Below, piece by piece: positions 30,224 to 36,603 of a stretch of DNA of 64,000 nucleotides. The position numbers and the translations under genes were made by a program. A model generated the notes under the pieces. It ran no database searches. It saw only the letters and a program-made list of their open reading frames with translations, and was not told the origin of the DNA. The DNA comes from Escherichia phage kaaroe. The DNA lies in sequence record MN850574.1; one strand, written 5' to 3'. Each line of letters opens with the position of its first letter. Positions within the stretch are counted from its first letter, which is position 1.

Positions 30224-30251
30224 TTGACATGTTGGCGAGGTAATGTATAAT
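30224..30251 (+). promoter_or_regulatory. sigma70-type early promoter
   Basis: TTGACA, 16-nt spacer, TATAAT, then CATCGAAACAACGGAGGATAAAAATATG leader. Confidence 0.55.
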
Positions 30252-30281
30252 GAACTCATCGAAACAACGGAGGATAAAAAT

Positions 30282-31526
30282 ATGAAAACTTACTTTGCAA
30301 AAGATGTTTGTTATATTATCAAAAATAAATCCGTCTCAAAAACACCAGAACATTACGAGAATCGCTCAATAAATTATGCATTGTCTCATGGTTTCGTTTA
30401 TTTGGGGTTTATTGGAGAATATTCTGGATGCCAAACCTTGTCAAATTTTGAATGTAAAAGACATGGAACGTTTGCGGTCAGAGTACAAAATCTAAATCAT
30501 GCTAAACATGGTTGCCCAAAATGTGCCATTGAGGATAGGGCAGAAAAAAGAAAATTGAGTATAGAAAAGATTTATAACGACATAAATCGAATCTGTGACG
30601 AGAACGGAACTATAGAATTAACAGAAATTAAAGGTGGGTATAAAACAACAAAAACACGAAATTTATTTTTTAAATGTAAATTGTGTAATGGCATGTTTAA
30701 TACATCACATGATCATTTAAAACGAGGTCAAGCATGTCCAAAATGTCGGTATAAAAAAATTTCTGTGTGTAATACTAGAAACCAACTTGATATTGAACTT
30801 GACATAAAAATAGAATGTAAAAAAAGAAAAACCGTTGAATTTGTAGAATTTGAAAATGGATATTGCAGATACAAGTCAAAAAATTTAATAATGAGATGTT
30901 TGCGTGGACACGGAAATTACACAACAACAGCAAACGACTTTTTTAAGGGACGTGGTTGTCCTACATGCGGAGGAACGAAAAGACTAACAGAAAAACAAGC
31001 ATCTGAACAAATGATAAAAGAGTGTGAAATTAGAGGTTATGATTTTTTGGGATTTTTTAATGGGTATAAAAAGTCGGCAGAACCTAATGCAAAATTAAAA
31101 TGTAAACGCAGTGGGGTAGTTTTTTATACATCACACAACAATTTTATGAAAGGACAAAACTGTAAGTGTTGCTCTGAATTTGGATATAGAACAACGAAAT
31201 CTGGTGTTTTCTATGTACAGAAACTGTTAGAAAATAATATTTTTTGTGGTGTTAAATTTGGTGTAACCAATAGAACAACAAAAGAACGAATTGGAGGTCA
31301 ATCTCGCCTTTCCAAATTCGACCACGAGATCTTTTATGAACTTACTTTACAAGACGGTCAAAAGATCTTAGACTTAGAGAACAAGATCAAGGAAGCGATG
31401 AAAGGTAAAACTTCCTATATCTCAAAAGAAGATATGCCGGATGGCTACACAGAAACAGTAGCGCCGTCAGAATTGAGCACTATCATGTATATCGTAAAAA
31501 CTTTTGAAAAAGAGTTGACAGCGTAA
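30282..31526 (+). CDS. zinc-ribbon repeat protein with C-terminal GIY-YIG/T5orf172-like region (possible homing endonuclease-like element)
   Basis: Four repeats of ~45 aa ending G(C)PxC; C-terminal GVFYVQKL...FCGVKFGVTNRTTKERIG; AT-rich codon usage. Confidence 0.4.
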   Translation: MKTYFAKDVCYIIKNKSVSKTPEHYENRSINYALSHGFVYLGFIGEYSGCQTLSNFECKRHGTFAVRVQNLNHAKHGCPKCAIEDRAEKRKLSIEKIYNDINRICDENGTIELTEIKGGYKTTKTRNLFFKCKLCNGMFNTSHDHLKRGQACPKCRYKKISVCNTRNQLDIELDIKIECKKRKTVEFVEFENGYCRYKSKNLIMRCLRGHGNYTTTANDFFKGRGCPTCGGTKRLTEKQASEQMIKECEIRGYDFLGFFNGYKKSAEPNAKLKCKRSGVVFYTSHNNFMKGQNCKCCSEFGYRTTKSGVFYVQKLLENNIFCGVKFGVTNRTTKERIGGQSRLSKFDHEIFYELTLQDGQKILDLENKIKEAMKGKTSYISKEDMPDGYTETVAPSELSTIMYIVKTFEKELTA

Positions 31527-31542
31527 CGCAATAGTGTATAAT
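31515..31542 (+). promoter_or_regulatory. sigma70-type early promoter
   Basis: TTGACA, 16-nt spacer, TATAAT, then CATATCGAAACAAAGAGAGGATTATATTATG. Confidence 0.5.
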
Positions 31543-31573
31543 GTACATATCGAAACAAAGAGAGGATTATATT

Positions 31574-31903
31574 ATGTGGACTGTAGAACAAATCGTAGAT
31601 GAAAAAGTAAGTATTATCTCATGTGGCACTATTGAAGAATGCCTAAAAGCCGCCAATCGTGAATGTATTACGGTTTATGAAGCCCGTCGCGGGGATGGTA
31701 CTGTGTTAACCAGCGACTATCGATATGAACCAAAAATGATTACCTTTCGTTTCTGGGAAAATGGTGTTAATGTTGGGGTATCTCACTTAAAACGTTTTCG
31801 TGATTATTCTGACCGTTATTTCATCACACCGGATAACGGTCAAGAATTTAAGACAGCAATCACAGAAGAAAATGTAAACGAAAACTATTTCAAACTGATT
31901 TGA
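31574..31903 (+). CDS. hypothetical protein (109 aa)
   Basis: Internal ATG of track ORF 31541-31903 after GAGAGGA SD. Confidence 0.5.
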   Translation: MWTVEQIVDEKVSIISCGTIEECLKAANRECITVYEARRGDGTVLTSDYRYEPKMITFRFWENGVNVGVSHLKRFRDYSDRYFITPDNGQEFKTAITEENVNENYFKLI

Positions 31904-31918
31904 TGGGAGATTTATATT

Positions 31919-32488
31919 ATGATTCAATGTGTATTTGCGATTGGTGACACTAAAATGTCAGATGAAAACTGGGCTTTTGGTTTTAAAGGCGGTTTACCGT
32001 GGGGTCGTCCAATCAAAAAGGACATGGAAAACTTTAAAATGCGCACTATGGGAGATGTTGATCTTGCGGCGGTAGTAATGGGACGTAATACCTTTGAAAG
32101 TCTGCCTAAAGCACTGGAAGGTCGTCTTAATGTGGTTATTAGTACCGATGCCAGCAAGCCGACACCGAAAGCCAAAAACGGCGACCAGCCTAATGTGTAT
32201 ACTGGAATTGAATTAAAGGATCTGTTAAAAGTCCTGGAGAAAACGCAAGGTTTGGTAAGTGTTATCGGCGGACCTTCCCTGATTGAAAAAGCGGTTGACT
32301 TTGCGGATCGTATTGTGTTAACGTATGTTCAACGTTCAGGAATCAACGATCCATTTGAATATGATGTTGGTATCTCTAAGGAAATGATTCAGGAATTATA
32401 TTTTGACTTTGTAACCAAAGAAGAACATAATTACTTCCTTGATGATTACCTGATCAGCGAACAAATTTTAGAACGTAAGAAGGCGTAA
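31919..32488 (+). CDS. frd: dihydrofolate reductase
   Basis: 189 aa; DHFR pattern (AFGFKGGLPWGRPIKKDMENFK); position between gene 32 and td. Confidence 0.85.
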   Translation: MIQCVFAIGDTKMSDENWAFGFKGGLPWGRPIKKDMENFKMRTMGDVDLAAVVMGRNTFESLPKALEGRLNVVISTDASKPTPKAKNGDQPNVYTGIELKDLLKVLEKTQGLVSVIGGPSLIEKAVDFADRIVLTYVQRSGINDPFEYDVGISKEMIQELYFDFVTKEEHNYFLDDYLISEQILERKKA

Positions 32489-32489
32489 C

Positions 32490-32582
32490 ATGAAAATTCT
32501 GACAGATTATGAGTGCAAACATTGTGGTGAATCTTTGATGTTTGCTGGTAGTCGGTGTTTACACTGCGGACGGGAACAATAA
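32490..32582 (+). CDS. small zinc-ribbon peptide (30 aa)
   Basis: MKILTDYECKHCGESLMFAGSRCLHCGREQ; CxxC...CxxC; stop overlaps next start. Confidence 0.4.
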   Translation: MKILTDYECKHCGESLMFAGSRCLHCGREQ

Positions 32583-32851
32583 TGAAAGTCGGTATTATTC
32601 AATTATGGACGGCTACCAGTGAAAACTACGCAGTAGCCGTAGATTATTACGGTTTACAATATCTCTATGATGAAGCGAGCGCATCATGGCTTCCTGTGCA
32701 AGAAAATAGCGATATATCAAGACCTGCTACTATATTCGACCGTGGCGTTGTCTTTATCGATATTGACGAGACAGTAGCAAAACTGCGTAAGAAAGCAATC
32801 AATAAGAAAAAGGTGATGTGGGATGAAAGAATATTTGAAACTATTGCGTGA
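32582..32851 (+). CDS. hypothetical protein (89 aa)
   Basis: Internal ATG of track ORF 32555-32851; 3' end overlaps td start. Confidence 0.45.
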   Translation: MKVGIIQLWTATSENYAVAVDYYGLQYLYDEASASWLPVQENSDISRPATIFDRGVVFIDIDETVAKLRKKAINKKKVMWDERIFETIA

Positions 32852-34055
32852 TGTTCTTGATAATGGATGGCCTCGTGAAGACCGAACTGGGGTAGGTACG
32901 CTATCTAAATTCGGCGCAGAGATGCGAATTGATTTAAGCAAGGGTTTCCCATTACTGACCACTAAAAAGATGGCTACAGCCTCTGTAATTGGCGAATTGC
33001 TATGGTTTATGGAGGGATCACTTGACCGCCGTCGCTTACAGGAAATTACACGCGGTAAGTTTGACGAAGAAGCCTTCGACATTTGGCGCGGCAACTGTCT
33101 TGATATGAAAGAAAAGAATCCTTTGCGATTCAATGGTTATAATGTCGGCAATATGTATGGTATGGCATGGCGACGCAAACCGATTCATCCACACGGTGAA
33201 ATCAAAATTAAGCGCGTTAAGAGCAAATATGCACATACATTTAAGCACCCGTGGGTAGAAGACTTTACGCCAACCAATGAAACAGAAGACCGTTTATGTG
33301 CTATCTGGCGTGGTATGCGTTATGAAGAGTTTGATTCTGAATATAATCAATTCTTAGTAGCAGACCACTGGAAGACTCAATCTAATTTTGTTAATGATGC
33401 ATATTGCTTGTGGGGATTCCAGGAATGGGTAGATGATGGTTATTTCGGTTATCTGCTTGATAGTGATTATCTGGGCGGGGATATTTTAGCGCCAGATACC
33501 ACGATCTTTGCTAGTATGGACGTAGACACATCGAGCACTAAAGACGATGAAGAATATGTCTATCGACCGAAGATTTGGGAAGACCAGTTACAAAACGTGA
33601 TTGAACAAATTAAAAACAATCCAACGGATCGACGTATCATCATTGACTCATGGAACGTACAAGGAACACATAATGCTGTATTAGGTGTATGTCATCCTTT
33701 CGTGCAATTCTACGTCAATGAAGGTAAACTGTCTTGTATGTGGTTTCAGCGAAGCGTAGACAGCTTTTTAGGCTTGCCCTTTAACGTCGCCAGCTATGCG
33801 CTGTTAACTCACATCATAGCGAAAATGTGTGATCTTGAGGTAGGAGAACTGATTTTCTCTGGTGGAGATACTCACATTTACAAAAACCATTTTGATCAAG
33901 TTATGGAACAGTTAAGCCGTGTTCCGTTTGATAAACCAACGATTGAGTTGCCGGAATTTAAATCTTTAGATGAGGTATTGACAAAGACTCCGAAAGACTT
34001 TAAAATTCACAACTATCAAAGCCATCCAGCAATCACCGCTCAAATGGCAGTATAA
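32823..34055 (+). CDS. td: thymidylate synthase with a ~130-aa internal insertion; no intron
   Basis: 410 aa continuous ORF; ThyA motifs (active-site CHPFVQFYV, RSVDSFLGLPFNVASYALL, SGGDTHIY, C-terminal AV). Confidence 0.88.
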   Translation: MKEYLKLLRDVLDNGWPREDRTGVGTLSKFGAEMRIDLSKGFPLLTTKKMATASVIGELLWFMEGSLDRRRLQEITRGKFDEEAFDIWRGNCLDMKEKNPLRFNGYNVGNMYGMAWRRKPIHPHGEIKIKRVKSKYAHTFKHPWVEDFTPTNETEDRLCAIWRGMRYEEFDSEYNQFLVADHWKTQSNFVNDAYCLWGFQEWVDDGYFGYLLDSDYLGGDILAPDTTIFASMDVDTSSTKDDEEYVYRPKIWEDQLQNVIEQIKNNPTDRRIIIDSWNVQGTHNAVLGVCHPFVQFYVNEGKLSCMWFQRSVDSFLGLPFNVASYALLTHIIAKMCDLEVGELIFSGGDTHIYKNHFDQVMEQLSRVPFDKPTIELPEFKSLDEVLTKTPKDFKIHNYQSHPAITAQMAV

Positions 34056-34060
34056 ACAAA

Positions 34061-34076
34061 GGGGGCGAAAGCCCCC
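34061..34076 (+). other. stable GCGAAAGC-type hairpin between td and nrdA
   Basis: GGGGGC-GAAA-GCCCCC; no T-run. Confidence 0.5.
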
Positions 34077-34123
34077 AATATGGAGGATAAACTTGTTCCT
34101 GCTAAAATATGAAGTGAGGTAAT

Positions 34124-36367
34124 ATGATTAAAAATGTTGTTAAGTCTTCCGGTCTGACTGTTCCTTTTGAAAAAGAAAAAGTAATGAAAATTCTGGAAGC
34201 GGCAGCCGAAGGTCATAACGTTGATCCATATGAATTGTTTGATATGGTTGAACCACTTCTGACAGAAGGTATGTCTACCAACGATATCCAGAAAGTATTG
34301 ATTAAGGTCGCAGCAGATAACATTACTGTAGAAACACCCGATTATCAATATGTAGCAAGTAACCTTGCAATGTTCGCGCTTCGCAAATCAGTATACGGTC
34401 AATTCCAACCGATTGATTTTTACAGCCATATTGAGCGTAATATTGCAACCGGAAAATATGATCGCGAAATTCTGCAAAAGTATTCCCGTGAAGAAGTGGA
34501 ATATCTGGAGAAATTCATCGACCATAAACTTGATTTTAAAATGACCTATGCTGGTGCGATGCAGTTAAAAGAGAAATATCTTGTTCAAGATCGCAGCACT
34601 AAGAAAATCATCGAAACACCGCAATTTGCGTATATGCTGATCGGTATGTGCTTGCATCAAGAAGAGACAGAAAATCGACTTGAACATGTGATTGATTTTT
34701 ATAATGCGGTTGCGAATAAGCAAATCTCTCTGCCTACTCCGATTATGGCAGGTGTGCGTACCCCAACACGCCAATTTAGTTCGTGTGTGGTGATTGAAAG
34801 TGATGACTCATTGCAGGGTATTAATGAAACCGCAAATGCAATCATCAAGTATATTAGCAAGCGTGCTGGTATCGGTATCAACGCTGGCATGATTCGCGCG
34901 GAAGGATCTAAGATCGGGCATGGTGAAGTTCGTCATACTGGAGTTATCCCATTCTGGAAACATTTTCAGACTGCCGTTAAGTCATGCTCACAAGGCGGTA
35001 TTCGTGGCGGGGCAGCGACACTCTATTACCCAATGTGGCATTTAGAGTTTGAAAGTCTGATTGTGTTAAAGAACAATAAGGGCGTGGAAGATAACCGCAT
35101 TCGCCATCTTGACTACGGCGTACAGATTAATAACCTGATGGTAGAGCGATTCCTTAAACGGGATTACATTACTCTGTTTAGTCCAGATGTTGCGGGTGGC
35201 TTGTTGTGGGATCTGTACTTCCGAGACGAGGAAGGTTTCCGCCAACTTTACGAAAAACTGGAAAAAGATCCGAGTGTTCGTAAAACTCGTGTTAAAGCCG
35301 AAGACCTGTTTTTAGCGGTGGCAATTGAACGTTTTAACACTGGTCGAATCTATCCAACGTTCACAGACAACATGAACAATCACGGGGCGTTTATTCGTAA
35401 TGTAGCACCGATTAAACAATCTAACCTGTGTTGTGAAATTGCTCTGCCTACTAAACCGATGGGTCGTGATGATTCAGAGATCAGCCTATGTACTTTGGCA
35501 GCATATGTTTTAGGAAACTTTGATATCGAAAATATGGAAGAAGTAGAACGCATTGCTATGGTTATGGTGCGTGCACTTGACAACCTGTTAGATTATCAGG
35601 ATTATCCTGTAGAGCAAGCTATGACAGCCAAAAAACGTCGCTCTCTGGGTGTTGGGGTGACTAACTTTGCATCGTATCTCGCGGATAATTTCTTCACATA
35701 TGAAGACGCTAACGAGTTTACGCATAAAACGTTTGAACGCTTGCAATATGCTCTGATTAAGGCTAGTGTGCAACTGGCTAAAGAGAAGGGTGCTTGCGAA
35801 CTGATGCACGAAACCCGCTATGGTCGCGGTGAACTGCCTATCGACTGGTACAAAAAGACAGTAGATGAACTGGTTGATCCGGTGTATGAGATGGATTGGG
35901 AAGAACTGCGCGAAGACCTGAAAAAATATGGCATTCGTAATAGTACGCTTTCGGCTCTGATGCCTTGTGAGTCGTCTTCTCAGGTATCTAACAGCACAAA
36001 CGGTATTGAACCACCTCGCGGGATTGTATCGGTTAAAGGATCGAAAGAAGGGCAATTTAATCAGGTTATTCCGAACGTAGAGAATAATGCTGATGTTATT
36101 GACCTGCTTTGGACACTGATCAAGAAAGGTAACAAGCCCTATCTGACACTGGCAGCGATCATGCAGAAGTTTGTAGATCAGGCGATTAGTTCCAATACAT
36201 CCTATGATCCAAGCACTTATAAGACTGGTAAAGTCGATATTGCTGATGTGTTAGATGATATGTTGTTCGCTCAACATTACGGTCTGAAAACCCTGTATTA
36301 TGCGAACGTTCGCGACGGTGCAGATGGTACGGAAGACGCTAGCGAGTGCTCATCTTGCAAGCTGTAA
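34124..36367 (+). CDS. nrdA: ribonucleotide reductase large subunit (class Ia)
   Basis: 747 aa; N-terminal ATP-cone, active-site SNLCCEIALP, C-terminal CSSCKL. Confidence 0.93.
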   Translation: MIKNVVKSSGLTVPFEKEKVMKILEAAAEGHNVDPYELFDMVEPLLTEGMSTNDIQKVLIKVAADNITVETPDYQYVASNLAMFALRKSVYGQFQPIDFYSHIERNIATGKYDREILQKYSREEVEYLEKFIDHKLDFKMTYAGAMQLKEKYLVQDRSTKKIIETPQFAYMLIGMCLHQEETENRLEHVIDFYNAVANKQISLPTPIMAGVRTPTRQFSSCVVIESDDSLQGINETANAIIKYISKRAGIGINAGMIRAEGSKIGHGEVRHTGVIPFWKHFQTAVKSCSQGGIRGGAATLYYPMWHLEFESLIVLKNNKGVEDNRIRHLDYGVQINNLMVERFLKRDYITLFSPDVAGGLLWDLYFRDEEGFRQLYEKLEKDPSVRKTRVKAEDLFLAVAIERFNTGRIYPTFTDNMNNHGAFIRNVAPIKQSNLCCEIALPTKPMGRDDSEISLCTLAAYVLGNFDIENMEEVERIAMVMVRALDNLLDYQDYPVEQAMTAKKRRSLGVGVTNFASYLADNFFTYEDANEFTHKTFERLQYALIKASVQLAKEKGACELMHETRYGRGELPIDWYKKTVDELVDPVYEMDWEELREDLKKYGIRNSTLSALMPCESSSQVSNSTNGIEPPRGIVSVKGSKEGQFNQVIPNVENNADVIDLLWTLIKKGNKPYLTLAAIMQKFVDQAISSNTSYDPSTYKTGKVDIADVLDDMLFAQHYGLKTLYYANVRDGADGTEDASECSSCKL

Positions 36368-36375
36368 AATAAGTG

Positions 36376-36404
36376 TTGACGCGGGGAGAAATCCCCGCTA
36401 TAAT
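36376..36404 (+). promoter_or_regulatory. PeSL-like early promoter cassette
   Basis: TTGACG, CGGGGA-GAAA-TCCCCG hairpin in spacer, TATAAT. Confidence 0.55.
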
Positions 36405-36603
36405 ACAACCATCAAAAACAAGTGAGGATTTTATTATGACCAAATTAAAATGTGTTGCTGTAGATTTTTGAACTAGCTGATAGCTTTGTTGTTGGTGATG
36501 AATATGATGCTCAACATGATGGGACTTGCTACTACGTCGAGGATGAATATGGTGTAGAATGGGCGATTCTTCCTGATGATAAATGTTTTGAGGTTGTCGG
36601 ATA

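What the first reader, a model, noticed from the sequence alone, without database searches (positions are those of the whole stretch)
33180..33581. Thymidylate synthase with a ~130-aa in-frame insertion and no intron
td is a continuous 410-aa ORF. Between the conserved WRRK and DQLQNVIEQIKNNP segments lies an acidic, Trp/Tyr-rich insert of ~130 aa, far longer than the small-domain insert of L. casei-type enzymes. It lacks intein boundary residues, and T4's group I intron is absent.
Basis: partly seen in the sequence, partly recalled or inferred. Interest (0 to 1): 0.6.

Follow-up and report, generated by a model that had tools for sequence, protein, structure and literature searches.

The report
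Endonuclease relic inside phage thymidylate synthase
This RB49-like phage's thymidylate synthase carries, in frame and unspliced, a well-folded 135-residue remnant of a homing-endonuclease-like domain; in other phages the same insert is full-length and behaves like a mobile element, so such elements can sit inside an essential enzyme without an intron or intein.

Summary
Residues 119-253 (33177-33581) are a 135-aa acidic, aromatic-rich insert at the small-domain loop, between WRR(K) and DQLQ. There is no intron, no intein signature and no assembly artefact: all 58 Krischvirus genomes found have it.

The insert is not a one-off. At least 74 phage or metagenomic TS lineages carry a homologous insert at the same site. 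Most are 190-280 aa, basic, and match phage families annotated 'HNH endonuclease' (phrog_2081, E=4e-32). Their free-standing relatives number more than 10,000 clusters.

The long inserts look mobile. One TS (P0024) differs from an 89-92% identical TS only by a clean 828-nt in-frame block. Insert-bearing and insert-less TS are interleaved.

The window's copy is a cut-down version. Two of three modules are deleted, the conserved K/Y/S/C/N motif residues are replaced (LDSD, L222), and the net charge is -12. It still folds confidently (pLDDT 93-94) and is under purifying selection (dN/dS about 0.2, against 0.02 for the core). It persists in other T4-like lineages.

Best reading: a catalytically dead, entrenched or exapted relic on an active TS. 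That the parent domain is a nuclease is inferred, not shown.

The parts
32823..34055 (+). td gene: thymidylate synthase, 410 aa plus stop, one continuous ORF
   Evidence: ORF list. Pfam PF00303 E=1.3e-84. 99.9% identical to Escherichia phage FL04 td and 97.8% to RB49 td. Synteny is frd-(small ORF)-td-nrdA, as in RB49.
32823..33176 (+). TS core, N-terminal part (aa 1-118), ending in the conserved YGMAWRR motif
   Evidence: Aligns to E. coli ThyA 1-82 and beyond. Invariant R21, K48, E58, W88, Y112, W116 and R117 in a 45-sequence alignment.
33177..33581 (+). In-frame 135-aa insert (aa 119-253): truncated, acidic relic of a homing-endonuclease-like domain (module B of the long inserts)
   Evidence: tblastn E=2e-12 and 4e-12 to the inserts of 517-aa TS of Asteriusvirus UE-S1 and Alcyoneusvirus phiKp_21. 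Those long inserts hit phrog_2081 'HNH endonuclease' at E=4e-32. Foldseek against BFVD finds a phage TS with an insert and free-standing homing-endonuclease-annotated proteins. AF2 pLDDT is 93 alone and 94 in context. dN/dS is 0.07-0.38.
33177..33212 (+). Basic N-terminal beta strand of the insert (aa 119-130, PIHPHGEIKIKR). It is the probable first strand of a two-stranded stalk leaving the TS core.
   Evidence: DSSP strand 119-130 in the full-length model. The P-x-P-H-G motif is conserved in nearly all insert-bearing TS. Segment 119-145 has net charge +6. Pairing with strand 245-253 is inferred.
33279..33434 (+). Helical part of the insert (aa 153-204), holding the family motifs W162..M165 and W183..N188-F189..D192 and LWGFQEWVD
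   Evidence: Helices 153-170, 181-193 and 199-204. W, W, F and D are invariant across 20 inserts. The family consensus is W65 M68 R71 C72 Y73 ... W91 F94 N96 F97 D100. In the window the R-C-Y triplet is replaced by E-E-F.
33336..33347 (+). SEYN (aa 172-175): site of a 4-codon in-frame indel polymorphism among Krischvirus, and the lowest-confidence part of the model
   Evidence: Phi1 and JK32 lack these 4 codons. The pLDDT block 171-180 is 75.
33447..33527 (+). Degenerate counterpart of the family's conserved L-D-K-D ... Y-S-P-x-T-C-x-F ... N motif (aa 209-235: YLLDSDYLGGDILAPDTTIFASMDVD). K is replaced by S214, Y by L222, S by A223, C by T227 and N by D235.
   Evidence: Family column frequencies in TS inserts: D120 98%, K121 92%, Y129 97%, S130 75%, T133 89%, C134 87%, N142 89%. 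Window residues were read from the alignment. Strands 210-213 and 228-231 are present and no helix follows. The motif resembles PacI VDRSD..GYSPQN..CFICN with the same Y-to-N spacing (sequence verified), but profile comparison is not significant.
33555..33581 (+). Returning beta strand (aa 245-253, EYVYRPKIWE) leading back into the TS core. The R-P motif is conserved in almost all insert-bearing TS.
   Evidence: DSSP strand 245-253. R130 and P131 of the insert are nearly invariant.
33582..34052 (+). TS core, C-terminal part (aa 254-410), with the catalytic Cys290 and the dUMP and folate binding residues
   Evidence: Aligns to E. coli ThyA 110-264. Invariant D254, Q255, R270, C290, H291, R310, S311, D313, N321, H351 and Y353; R271 nearly invariant.

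Best explanation
The insert is the cut-down, catalytically dead remnant of a homing-endonuclease-like domain. That domain entered the td gene in frame, at the surface-exposed small-domain loop just after the conserved YGxxWR motif, in an ancestor of this phage lineage. In its full form the element has three modules: a beta-rich module A, the conserved module B, and a C-terminal module C. It totals 190-280 aa and is basic. It is translated as part of TS with no RNA or protein splicing. It probably spreads between phage td genes by cleaving insert-less alleles, followed by recombinational repair; this step is inferred. In the Krischvirus lineage modules A and C were deleted. The conserved K, Y, S, C and N residues of the putative active-site motif were replaced, and the domain became acidic. 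It therefore no longer cuts or binds DNA. What remains is a compact, confidently folded domain on a two-stranded stalk, attached to a TS that keeps every catalytic residue and presumably still makes dTMP. The relic persists under moderate purifying selection. Three reasons are likely: it must fold for TS to fold; only precise in-frame deletions would be tolerated; and an occupied site would be immune to cleavage by active relatives. A gained protein-protein function is possible but not shown. Shown here: the ORF, the position, homology to long inserts and free-standing proteins, presence/absence polymorphism, loss of motif residues, the confident fold, and the selection pattern. Inferred: nuclease activity of the parent domain, homing, TS activity, and the reason for retention.
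For: 1. Structure of the gene. It is a continuous ORF with intact TS residues.
2. Same site elsewhere. There are 25 insert-bearing TS among close hits and 74 in the combined sample, all between WR and DQL. Insert lengths are 126-284 aa.
3. Homology chain. The window insert matches the UE-S1 and phiKp_21 TS inserts at E=2e-12 and 4e-12, and Vibrio D69 at 1e-5. The long inserts match phrog_2081, phrog_953 and phrog_374 ('HNH endonuclease') at 4e-32, 7e-25 and 8e-21. An insert profile finds 10,755 clusters in 1.84 billion proteins; 85 of the top 150 are free-standing proteins of 131-724 aa. Foldseek of the window insert finds free-standing phage proteins, some named homing endonuclease.
4. Mobility signature.
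- P0024 (552 aa) and P0029 (276 aa) have 89% identical cores, syntenic DHFR-TS phage contexts, and one clean 828-nt in-frame difference.
- P0024 is 92% identical to the insert-less P0056, and 14 of 74 insert-bearing TS are closer to an insert-less TS than to another insert-bearing one.
- Between two jumbo-phage genera, synonymous divergence of the insert is less than half that of the flanking core (dS 0.54 against 1.25, p=1e-4). Third-position identity peaks over and next to the insert.
5. Long forms look functional. They have pI 8.2-9.6. Module B has dN/dS 0.085 and 92% identity, against 90% for the TS core. The motif residues are 87-98% conserved.
6. The window copy is degenerate. Modules A and C are absent. 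K is replaced by S, Y by L, S by A, C by T and N by D. Net charge is -12. Its direct PHROG match is only E=0.1.
7. It is still constrained. pLDDT is 93-94 and pTM 0.92. dN/dS is 0.07-0.38 against 0.005-0.04 for the core. It is 57% identical to P0003 where the cores are 66% identical. P0005 and P0006 sit in T4-like gp32-frd-td-nrdA contigs.
8. It is old. GC3 is 0.36, against 0.40 for the core.
Against: No member of this domain family is known to me to have been tested for nuclease activity. 'HNH endonuclease' is an annotation label in PHROGs and GenBank. No Pfam or NCBIfam model covers the domain.

The family has Lys where canonical HNH enzymes have the catalytic His, so even the parent domain might be a DNA-binding rather than a cutting module.

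Within Krischvirus the insert is fixed (58 of 58), so no mobility is seen in this lineage.

Conservation of the short form in two independent lineages (Krischvirus-type, and P0010/P0013 of the Asteriusvirus-type clade) could mean a real function rather than mere entrenchment.

The direction of transfer is inferred from family size only. It could have run from free-standing gene to TS, or the reverse.
Confidence: 0.65

Rival explanations
1. Exapted accessory domain. The relic has acquired a host-beneficial role on TS. Its acidic surface could be a docking site for another protein, for example a partner in the T4-type dNTP-synthesising complex or gp32. It could also act as a DNA mimic or a regulator of TS. 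On this reading it is kept by positive function, not inertia.
For: The domain folds confidently and appears rigidly placed relative to the TS core (pTM 0.92). dN/dS is below 1 in all 15 Krischvirus pairs. It is retained at 37-57% identity across T4-like lineages whose TS cores are 62-66% identical. The same central module is kept independently in P0010 and P0013 after loss of modules A and C. The shift from basic to strongly acidic (net -12) is directional.
Against: No partner or activity is known. dN/dS is about ten times higher than in the TS core. A 4-codon indel is tolerated. Charge is not conserved among the short forms (net -12 to -1 in the T4-like group, +5 and +6 in P0010 and P0013). 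Purifying selection is also expected for any domain whose misfolding would damage an essential enzyme.
Confidence: 0.3
2. Ordinary lineage-specific elaboration of the TS small domain, as in L. casei-type enzymes, with no relation to mobile elements or nucleases.
For: The position is the known variable small-domain region of ThyA. The window insert alone gives no Pfam hit and only E=0.1 to a PHROG family.
Against: There is significant homology to longer inserts, which in turn match free-standing phage protein families at E down to 4e-32. Foldseek links the window insert itself to free-standing proteins (E=1.3e-4, probability 1.0). A clean presence/absence difference separates 89-92% identical TS. 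No alignment to the L. casei insert was produced.
Confidence: 0.04
3. The insert is removed before the enzyme is mature: an intein, a cryptic intron, or a translational bypass as in T4 gene 60.
For: T4 td does carry a group I intron, and T4-type phages use bypassing in gene 60 (established knowledge). Phage genes for nucleotide metabolism are common intein hosts.
Against: The frame is continuous. There is no Rfam intron. There is no Hint domain and there are no Cys/Ser/Thr or His-Asn boundary residues (and the sequence itself). Amino-acid-level purifying selection acts on the insert. It is predicted as a compact domain joined to the core by two strands. All indels among relatives are in frame.
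Confidence: 0.02
4. The window's insert is itself still an active homing or DNA-targeting nuclease.
For: The fold is retained. The first Asp of the motif (D213) and an acidic residue at the Asn position (D235) remain. Synonymous divergence in the insert is somewhat lower than in the core among Krischvirus.
Against: The conserved Tyr, Lys, Ser and Cys of the motif are replaced, and modules A and C are gone. Net charge -12 is unfavourable for DNA binding. The insert is fixed in all 58 genomes, with no empty sites left to invade.
Confidence: 0.03

Closest known systems
Inteins carrying homing-endonuclease domains (in-frame mobile elements in conserved sites of essential genes)
   Same: The insertion is in frame, at a conserved site of an essential nucleotide-metabolism gene. 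The domain is endonuclease-like. Distribution is patchy presence/absence among close relatives. Decay runs from full-length forms to 'mini' forms.
   Different: There is no Hint splicing domain and there are no splice-junction residues (and the sequence). The insert stays in the mature protein, so it must sit at a structurally permissive loop.
T4 td group I intron with I-TevI
   Same: The same host gene (td) in the same phage family is targeted by a homing element. Homing sites coincide with conserved coding sequence (PMC2988022).
   Different: The site is different: the small-domain loop after YGxxWR, rather than the active-site region. There is no ribozyme. The nuclease family is different (GIY-YIG for I-TevI). 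The element is translated as part of TS.
Free-standing phage proteins of phrog_2081 / phrog_953 / phrog_374 ('HNH endonuclease'; for example Justusliebigvirus alia gp039, which lies beside a DNA polymerase gene annotated 'part I')
   Same: They are homologous to the insert. The motifs W..M..RCY, W..F.NF..D and LDKD..YSP.TC.F..N are shared. They sit next to or inside conserved phage genes.
   Different: They are separate genes, often with an AP2-like C-terminal domain. The window copy lacks most motif residues and both flanking modules. No experimental characterisation is known to me.
PacI restriction endonuclease (His-Me finger group 20, with Tyr as general base)
   Different: The similarity is not significant by sequence or profile or by Foldseek. 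PacI has two Cys4 zinc sites, and the insert family has none conserved. The relation is a lead, not a demonstrated membership.
L. casei-type ThyA small-domain insert
   Same: The same location in the TS fold.
   Different: It is about 50 aa against 135 aa here, with no detectable similarity, and it is not linked to any mobile-element family.
SMAD MH1 domain (a His-Me finger that lost catalysis and was recruited for another role)
   Same: It is a precedent for a nuclease-derived domain surviving without catalytic residues (PMC5714182).
   Different: MH1 kept DNA binding. The window's relic has become acidic and probably lost it.
LAGLIDADG homing-endonuclease genes fused in frame into mitochondrial rps3 of Ophiostoma and related fungi (recalled from memory; not checked here)
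   Same: A homing-endonuclease ORF is inserted directly into a host coding sequence, without its own intron or intein, giving a fusion protein.
   Different: Different nuclease family, host and gene. The insertion is near the end of the host ORF rather than in an internal loop of an enzyme.

Membership tests
Thymidylate synthase ThyA (PF00303, EC 2.1.1.45) | Profile match over the whole TS fold | tested here: met
   Pfam E=1.3e-84 covering profile positions 1-266. PDB ThyA hits at E=1e-68 in two blocks.
Thymidylate synthase ThyA (PF00303, EC 2.1.1.45) | Catalytic Cys and the dUMP and folate binding residues (E. coli R21, E58, W80, Y94, R126', R127', C146, R166, S167, D169, N177, H207, Y209) | tested here: met
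   The window has R21, E58, W88, Y112, R270, R271, C290, R310, S311, D313, N321, H351 and Y353. Apart from R271 (nearly invariant), all are invariant columns in a 45-sequence alignment.
Thymidylate synthase ThyA (PF00303, EC 2.1.1.45) | dTMP synthesis activity | not testable with these tools
   Needs thyA complementation or an enzyme assay.
Intein | Cys/Ser/Thr (or Ala) as first insert residue; His-Asn at the end followed by Cys/Ser/Thr | tested here: not met
   The insert begins K118-P119 and ends W252-E253, followed by D254.
Intein | Hint splicing fold or blocks | tested here: not met
   No Hint or intein Pfam hit at E<=1. The predicted structure is a helical/beta domain on a two-strand stalk.
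Group I intron (as in T4 td) | Ribozyme structure interrupting the reading frame | tested here: not met
   The ORF is continuous. No Rfam match at E<=1 in 31500-36500 other than a chance 5.8S hit.
Phage 'HNH endonuclease'-annotated domain family (phrog_2081/953/374) | Significant profile match | tested here: inconclusive
   The window insert matches phrog_2081 directly only at E=0.1. The link is strong through intermediates: E=2e-12 to long TS inserts, which hit phrog_2081 at 4e-32. Foldseek gives E=1.3e-4 to a free-standing member.
Phage 'HNH endonuclease'-annotated domain family (phrog_2081/953/374) | Conserved motifs W..M..RCY, W..F.NF..D, LDKD, YSP.TC.F, N | tested here: not met
   The window keeps W162, M165, W183, N188, F189, D192, D213, P224, T226 and F229. 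It has EEF for RCY, S for K, L for Y, A for S, T for C and D for N. This is a degenerate member.
His-Me finger (HNH, beta-beta-alpha-metal) nucleases, PacI-like | Beta-beta-alpha-metal fold | tested here: inconclusive
His-Me finger (HNH, beta-beta-alpha-metal) nucleases, PacI-like | General base (His, or Tyr in PacI) plus metal-binding Asp and Asn | tested here: not met
   The window has Leu222 at the Tyr position and Asp235 at the Asn position; Asp213 is kept. Long-form inserts keep D (98%), Y (97%) and N (89%).
His-Me finger (HNH, beta-beta-alpha-metal) nucleases, PacI-like | Sequence or profile homology to a characterised member | tested here: not met
   hhalign probability is below 1%. The PDB profile search gives no nuclease hit better than E=0.9.
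Homing endonuclease gene (mobile element), applied to the insert family as a whole | Presence/absence at one precise site among otherwise near-identical host genes | tested here: met
   P0024 against P0029: an 828-nt in-frame block in flanks that are clearly homologous at the nucleotide level, in syntenic contexts. P0024's core is 92% identical to the insert-less P0056, and 14 of 74 insert-bearing TS are closer to an insert-less TS. This is not met within Krischvirus, where the insert is fixed.
Homing endonuclease gene (mobile element), applied to the insert family as a whole | Site-specific cleavage of the empty allele, and gene conversion | not testable with these tools
   Only an indirect hint: lower synonymous divergence centred on the insert between UE-S1 and phiKp_21.
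Hef-like homing endonucleases (phage U5, LIMEstone F-LimIII) | Sequence similarity | tested here: not met
   The insert HMM gives no hit to F-LimIII at E<=10.

The most novel reading that the evidence does not exclude
The window holds the fossil of an unrecognised class of mobile element: a homing-nuclease domain with no intron and no intein. It inserts in frame into a permissive surface loop of phage thymidylate synthase and is expressed permanently as part of the mature enzyme. It may use the obligate TS dimer to bring two nuclease domains together for a double-strand break. It spreads among the td genes of very different phages: T4-like, jumbo Asteriusvirus/Alcyoneusvirus, vibriophages, and many uncultured siphovirus-like contigs. 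In Krischvirus the element has died, and its core has been kept and remodelled into an acidic accessory domain of TS.
Probability: 0.4. Interest if true: 0.75.

Novelty: new variant of a known kind. Interest (0 to 1): 0.6.

Why it matters
Homing endonucleases are thought to need a splicing vehicle (a group I or II intron, or an intein) or an intergenic site in order to live in essential genes. Here an endonuclease-like domain sits unspliced inside a textbook enzyme, at one fixed site, in at least 74 phage TS lineages, and all stages of decay are visible.

If the long forms are active, this would be a third route for selfish nucleases into coding sequence. It would also be a natural example of domain insertion that keeps both proteins folded, and a source of TS-fused site-specific nucleases.

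For the RB49 group it explains a long-annotated but oversized td gene. It gives a testable case of a dead mobile element becoming a permanent part of a host enzyme. It also flags an uncurated domain family of more than 10,000 clusters that has no Pfam or NCBIfam model.

Tried and rejected
- The search for homologous proteins with the insert alone returned nothing because of the word index. The full-length protein worked.
- Pfam and NCBIfam have no model for the insert, the long inserts or the free-standing relatives.
- Solved structures gave nothing: a PDB sequence-profile search has no meaningful hit, and Foldseek against PDB has nothing at E<3.
- The hypothesis that the family equals the experimentally characterised 'Hef' endonucleases was tested on LIMEstone1 F-LimIII and rejected.
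- Intein, intron and bypass readings were rejected.
- No second copy of the domain was found in the window.
- The genome-contig scan with the window-type pattern found no relative. The scan with long-form patterns found 2 MAG loci with no TS sequence in the fetched locus (2.5-kb flanks). One alignment (A4) was too diverse for pattern search.
- The afdb50 fold library was unavailable.
- Papers not held: Desplats 2002 on RB49, Shen 2010 on PacI, and Sandegren 2005 on Hef.
- Literature searches found no description of the TS insert. This covers only the open-access library.
Full report
**1. What is in the window**

The window is from a Krischvirus, an RB49-like T4-type coliphage. The td region is 99.9% identical to Escherichia phage FL04 and 97.8% to RB49. 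Gene order is frd (31919-32488), a small ORF, td, then nrdA (34124-36367), as in RB49.

td is one uninterrupted ORF, 32823-34055, encoding 410 aa. Pfam Thymidylat_synt spans residues 2-410 at E=1.3e-84. Solved ThyA proteins align in two blocks only: residues 1-82, and residues 254-410, which correspond to E. coli 110-264 and L. casei 162-316.

The sequence between WRR(K) (residues 116-119) and DQLQ (residue 254) is 135 aa, at 33177-33581. It is acidic, with 26 D+E against 14 K+R and pI 4.7. It contains 6 Trp, 9 Tyr and 8 Phe.

Every catalytic and substrate-binding residue of TS is present and lies in a conserved column (all invariant except R271, which is nearly invariant) of a 45-sequence alignment. 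These include R21, E58, Y112, R270/R271, C290, R310, S311, D313, N321, H351 and Y353.

**2. What it is not**

- It is not an intron. No Rfam family, including group I introns, matches 31500-36500, and the frame is continuous.
- It is not an intein. There is no Hint hit. The insert begins Lys-Pro and ends Trp-Glu before Asp254, so intein junction residues are absent.
- It is not an artefact. All 58 Krischvirus records found carry the gene at full length and the insert at 89.6-100% amino-acid identity.
- It does not align with the L. casei small-domain insert.

**3. The insert has relatives at the same site in many other phage TS genes**

A tblastn of the insert against 50,697 phage genomes found several relatives outside Krischvirus:
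- the 517-aa TS of jumbo phages Asteriusvirus UE-S1 and Alcyoneusvirus phiKp_21, at E=2e-12 and 4e-12;
- a 477-aa TS-like protein of Vibrio phages D69 and D148, misannotated 'HNH endonuclease'.

A search with the whole protein returned 25 clusters of TS of 401-613 aa, followed by ordinary TS of 276-304 aa. In all of them the extra sequence lies between the WR motif and (I/V)DQL. Its length falls into classes: 126-139 aa (Krischvirus type), 143-144, 193-197, and 233-283 aa.

Alignment shows three modules in the long form:
- Module A, a beta-rich stretch of about 80 aa.
- Module B, a conserved central module. Its motifs are G-Y-L-G, L-Y-x-x-W-x-x-M-x-x-R-C-Y, V-C-x-R-W-x-x-F-x-N-F-x-x-D, L-W-G-F-Q-E-x-V-D, L-D-K-D-Y-Y-G, Y-S-P-x-T-C-x-F and N.
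- Module C, about 50 aa.

After module C comes a conserved V-x-R-P-x-I strand that returns to TS. The window's insert is module B alone, with its R-C-Y-N-P loop shortened.

P0005 and P0006, which carry the short form, lie in T4-like contigs with gp59/gp32-frd-td-nrdA-nrdB order. The short form has therefore been inherited across T4-like lineages whose TS cores are only 62-66% identical.

**4. Link to free-standing endonuclease-like genes**

- The long inserts match PHROG families annotated 'HNH endonuclease': phrog_2081 at E=4e-32, phrog_953 at 7e-25 and phrog_374 at 8e-21. The window insert reaches only E=0.1 on its own.
- A profile of 20 inserts, searched against 1.84 billion representative proteins, found 10,755 clusters at E<=1e-3 and 2,595 at E<=1e-10. 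Of the top 150, 52 are complete TS proteins with the insert, 13 more are partial TS, and 85 are free-standing proteins of 131-724 aa.
- One free-standing relative is Justusliebigvirus alia gp039. It lies directly after a gene annotated 'DNA polymerase I, part I', which is a typical homing-endonuclease position.
- Foldseek of the window insert model against viral predicted structures finds another phage TS (564 aa, E=4.5e-5). It also finds free-standing phage proteins, some named homing endonuclease.
- No Pfam or NCBIfam model covers the domain.

**5. Is the parent domain a nuclease?**

This is inferred, not shown. Several observations point that way:
- The family conserves D120, K121, D122, Y129, S130, T133, C134 and N142 in profile numbering.
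- PacI has the stretch VDRSD-x4-GYSPQN-x8-CN, with the same Tyr-to-Asn spacing of 13 residues as the family (sequence verified). PacI is the known His-Me finger in which Tyr replaces the catalytic His and Asp and Asn hold the metal. Its group is described as mainly viral (PMC5714182, PMC4081073).
- The long inserts are basic, with pI 8.2-9.6.
- In alia gp039, module B sits where the nuclease domain sits in HNH-AP2 proteins.

Against this, profile-profile comparison with PacI is not significant. Foldseek against PDB and a sequence-profile search of PDB find nothing. I know of no experimental work on the family. It is also not the 'Hef' family.

**6. The long inserts behave like mobile elements**

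- P0024 (552 aa) and P0029 (276 aa) come from syntenic phage contigs (DHFR-TS). Their TS cores are 89% identical. At DNA level they differ by one clean 828-nt in-frame block.
- P0024's core is 92% identical to the insert-less P0056, but only 83% to the nearest other insert-bearing TS. Of 74 insert-bearing TS, 14 are closer to an insert-less TS than to any insert-bearing one.
- P0024-type inserts are only 20-27% identical to the other inserts, while the cores are 46-59% identical. This argues for separate invasions of the same site.
- Between UE-S1 and phiKp_21 the insert has less than half the synonymous divergence of the flanking TS core (dS 0.54 against 1.25, Fisher p=1e-4). Third-position identity peaks over module B and just downstream of the insert, and falls towards both gene ends. 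That is the shape expected of a co-conversion tract, although ordinary phage mosaicism is not excluded.
- Module B of these long forms is as constrained as TS itself: dN/dS 0.085 and 92% identity, against 0.063 and 90% for the core.
- The insertion point follows the invariant Y-G-x-x-W-R codons. This fits the habit of homing endonucleases of targeting conserved coding sequence (PMC2988022).
- Scans of 185,579 bacterial and archaeal species genomes found no TS with this insert. It appears to be a phage phenomenon.

**7. The window's copy is a relic**

- It lacks modules A and C.
- In the motif it has LDSD for LDKD, L-A-P-D-T-T for Y-S-P-D-T-C, and Asp235 for the Asn. E-E-F replaces R-C-Y.
- All other short or shortened forms also lack the Tyr. 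It is Leu in P0002-P0006 and His in P0010, P0013 and P0020.
- The domain has changed from basic to net -12. Only the first strand of the stalk remains basic.
- Its GC and GC3 match the rest of the gene, so the insertion is old. No second copy of the domain exists in the window.

**8. Yet it is a real, constrained domain**

- AlphaFold2 with a 45-sequence alignment gives mean pLDDT 94.3 and pTM 0.92 for the whole protein. The insert blocks are mostly above 90, and the lowest block, residues 171-180, is 75. The insert alone gives pLDDT 93.0.
- The predicted architecture is: strand 119-130 leaving the core; helices 153-170, 181-193 and 199-204; strands 210-213 and 228-231; an acidic coil; and strand 245-253 returning to the core. 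I infer, but could not check, that the two long strands pair into a stalk.
- Among six Krischvirus genes, dN/dS is 0.07-0.38 in the insert and 0.005-0.04 in the core. The only length change is a 4-codon in-frame indel at residues 172-175.
- At greater distance the insert is 57% identical where the core is 66% identical (window against P0003).

**9. Interpretation**

The most economical account is the homing-endonuclease life cycle played out inside a coding sequence:
1. Invasion of a permissive loop of td by an endonuclease-like ORF fused in frame.
2. Spread among phage td genes.
3. Loss of activity, followed by piecemeal in-frame deletion.
4. Arrest at a minimal folded core.

That core cannot easily be removed. 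It is spliced into the TS fold by two strands, and an occupied site would not be cut by active relatives.

The same central module was kept independently in the P0010/P0013 lineage, and the Krischvirus domain was remodelled to an acidic surface. These two facts leave room for a gained function, which I rate at about 0.3. An active nuclease, a spliced element or a plain TS elaboration are each unlikely.

**10. Novelty**

RB49 td has been in GenBank as a 410-aa 'thymidylate synthase' since 2003. I found no description of the insert or of the wider TS-insert family in the searchable literature. That library is open-access only.

The kind of thing is known: homing-endonuclease-derived DNA in phage nucleotide-metabolism genes. 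The variant is not, as far as I could find: in frame, unspliced, at one site in a well-studied enzyme, in dozens of lineages, with a fossil series. I therefore class it as a new variant of a known kind and score its interest at 0.6.

Noticed in passing
window 30243-31526 (+): A 427-aa ORF on the gene 32 side of frd, with four CapR-homology / treble-clef zinc repeats (Pfam PF21817, E=4.5e-12). The RB49 orthologue (RB49p240) is 485 aa and annotated 'endonuclease'. It is likely a free-standing homing endonuclease gene with a size polymorphism between Krischvirus isolates.
   Followed up: partly
window 32555-32851 (+): A small ORF (98 aa from a GTG here; RB49p236 is 89 aa in RB49). Its end overlaps the td start codon region by 29 nt. 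Function unknown.
   Followed up: no
L001 and L002, 1955-3508; window 33177-33581: Synonymous divergence is lower inside the insert than in the flanking TS core. It is strong between the two jumbo-phage genera (dS 0.54 against 1.25, p=1e-4) and peaks over and just 3' of the insert. The same direction is seen more weakly among Krischvirus (for example 0.143 against 0.286, p=0.06), even though that insert looks dead. Co-conversion, mosaicism or synonymous constraint have not been told apart.
   Followed up: partly
L016 4689-7876: In an uncultured T4-like contig that carries the short td insert, nrdA is split into two ORFs (476 and 324 aa) by a 237-aa gene with a faint I-HmuI/NUMOD-like hit. This is a genes-in-pieces ribonucleotide reductase like that described for phage Aeh1.
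   Followed up: no
L003 2138-3571 (Vibrio phage D69, CAL9965137): It is annotated 'HNH endonuclease' but is a TS-superfamily protein with a 195-aa insert at the same site. It has altered TS motifs (LGSFYNIWSYALL, DAHTY, and ETRSG in place of DRTG), so it may have a different substrate or be inactive.
   Followed up: no
P0143 (264 aa): A free-standing member of the insert family whose ends resemble the TS-insert junctions: a stalk-like N-terminus, and a C-terminal ...VLYRPINPIEELVELY. It may be an insert ORF separated from its TS halves (a split TS), or an excised copy carrying host flanks.
   Followed up: no
L008 1816-2118 (Shigella phage SFHK24); L015 6247-6561; L016 4373-4678: Some relatives have an extra ORF of about 100 aa between td and nrdA. 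It is DUF4326 in the uncultured T4-like contigs; the SFHK24 ORF was not scanned. The ORF is absent from the window and from RB49. This is another variable slot in the td-nrdA interval.
   Followed up: no
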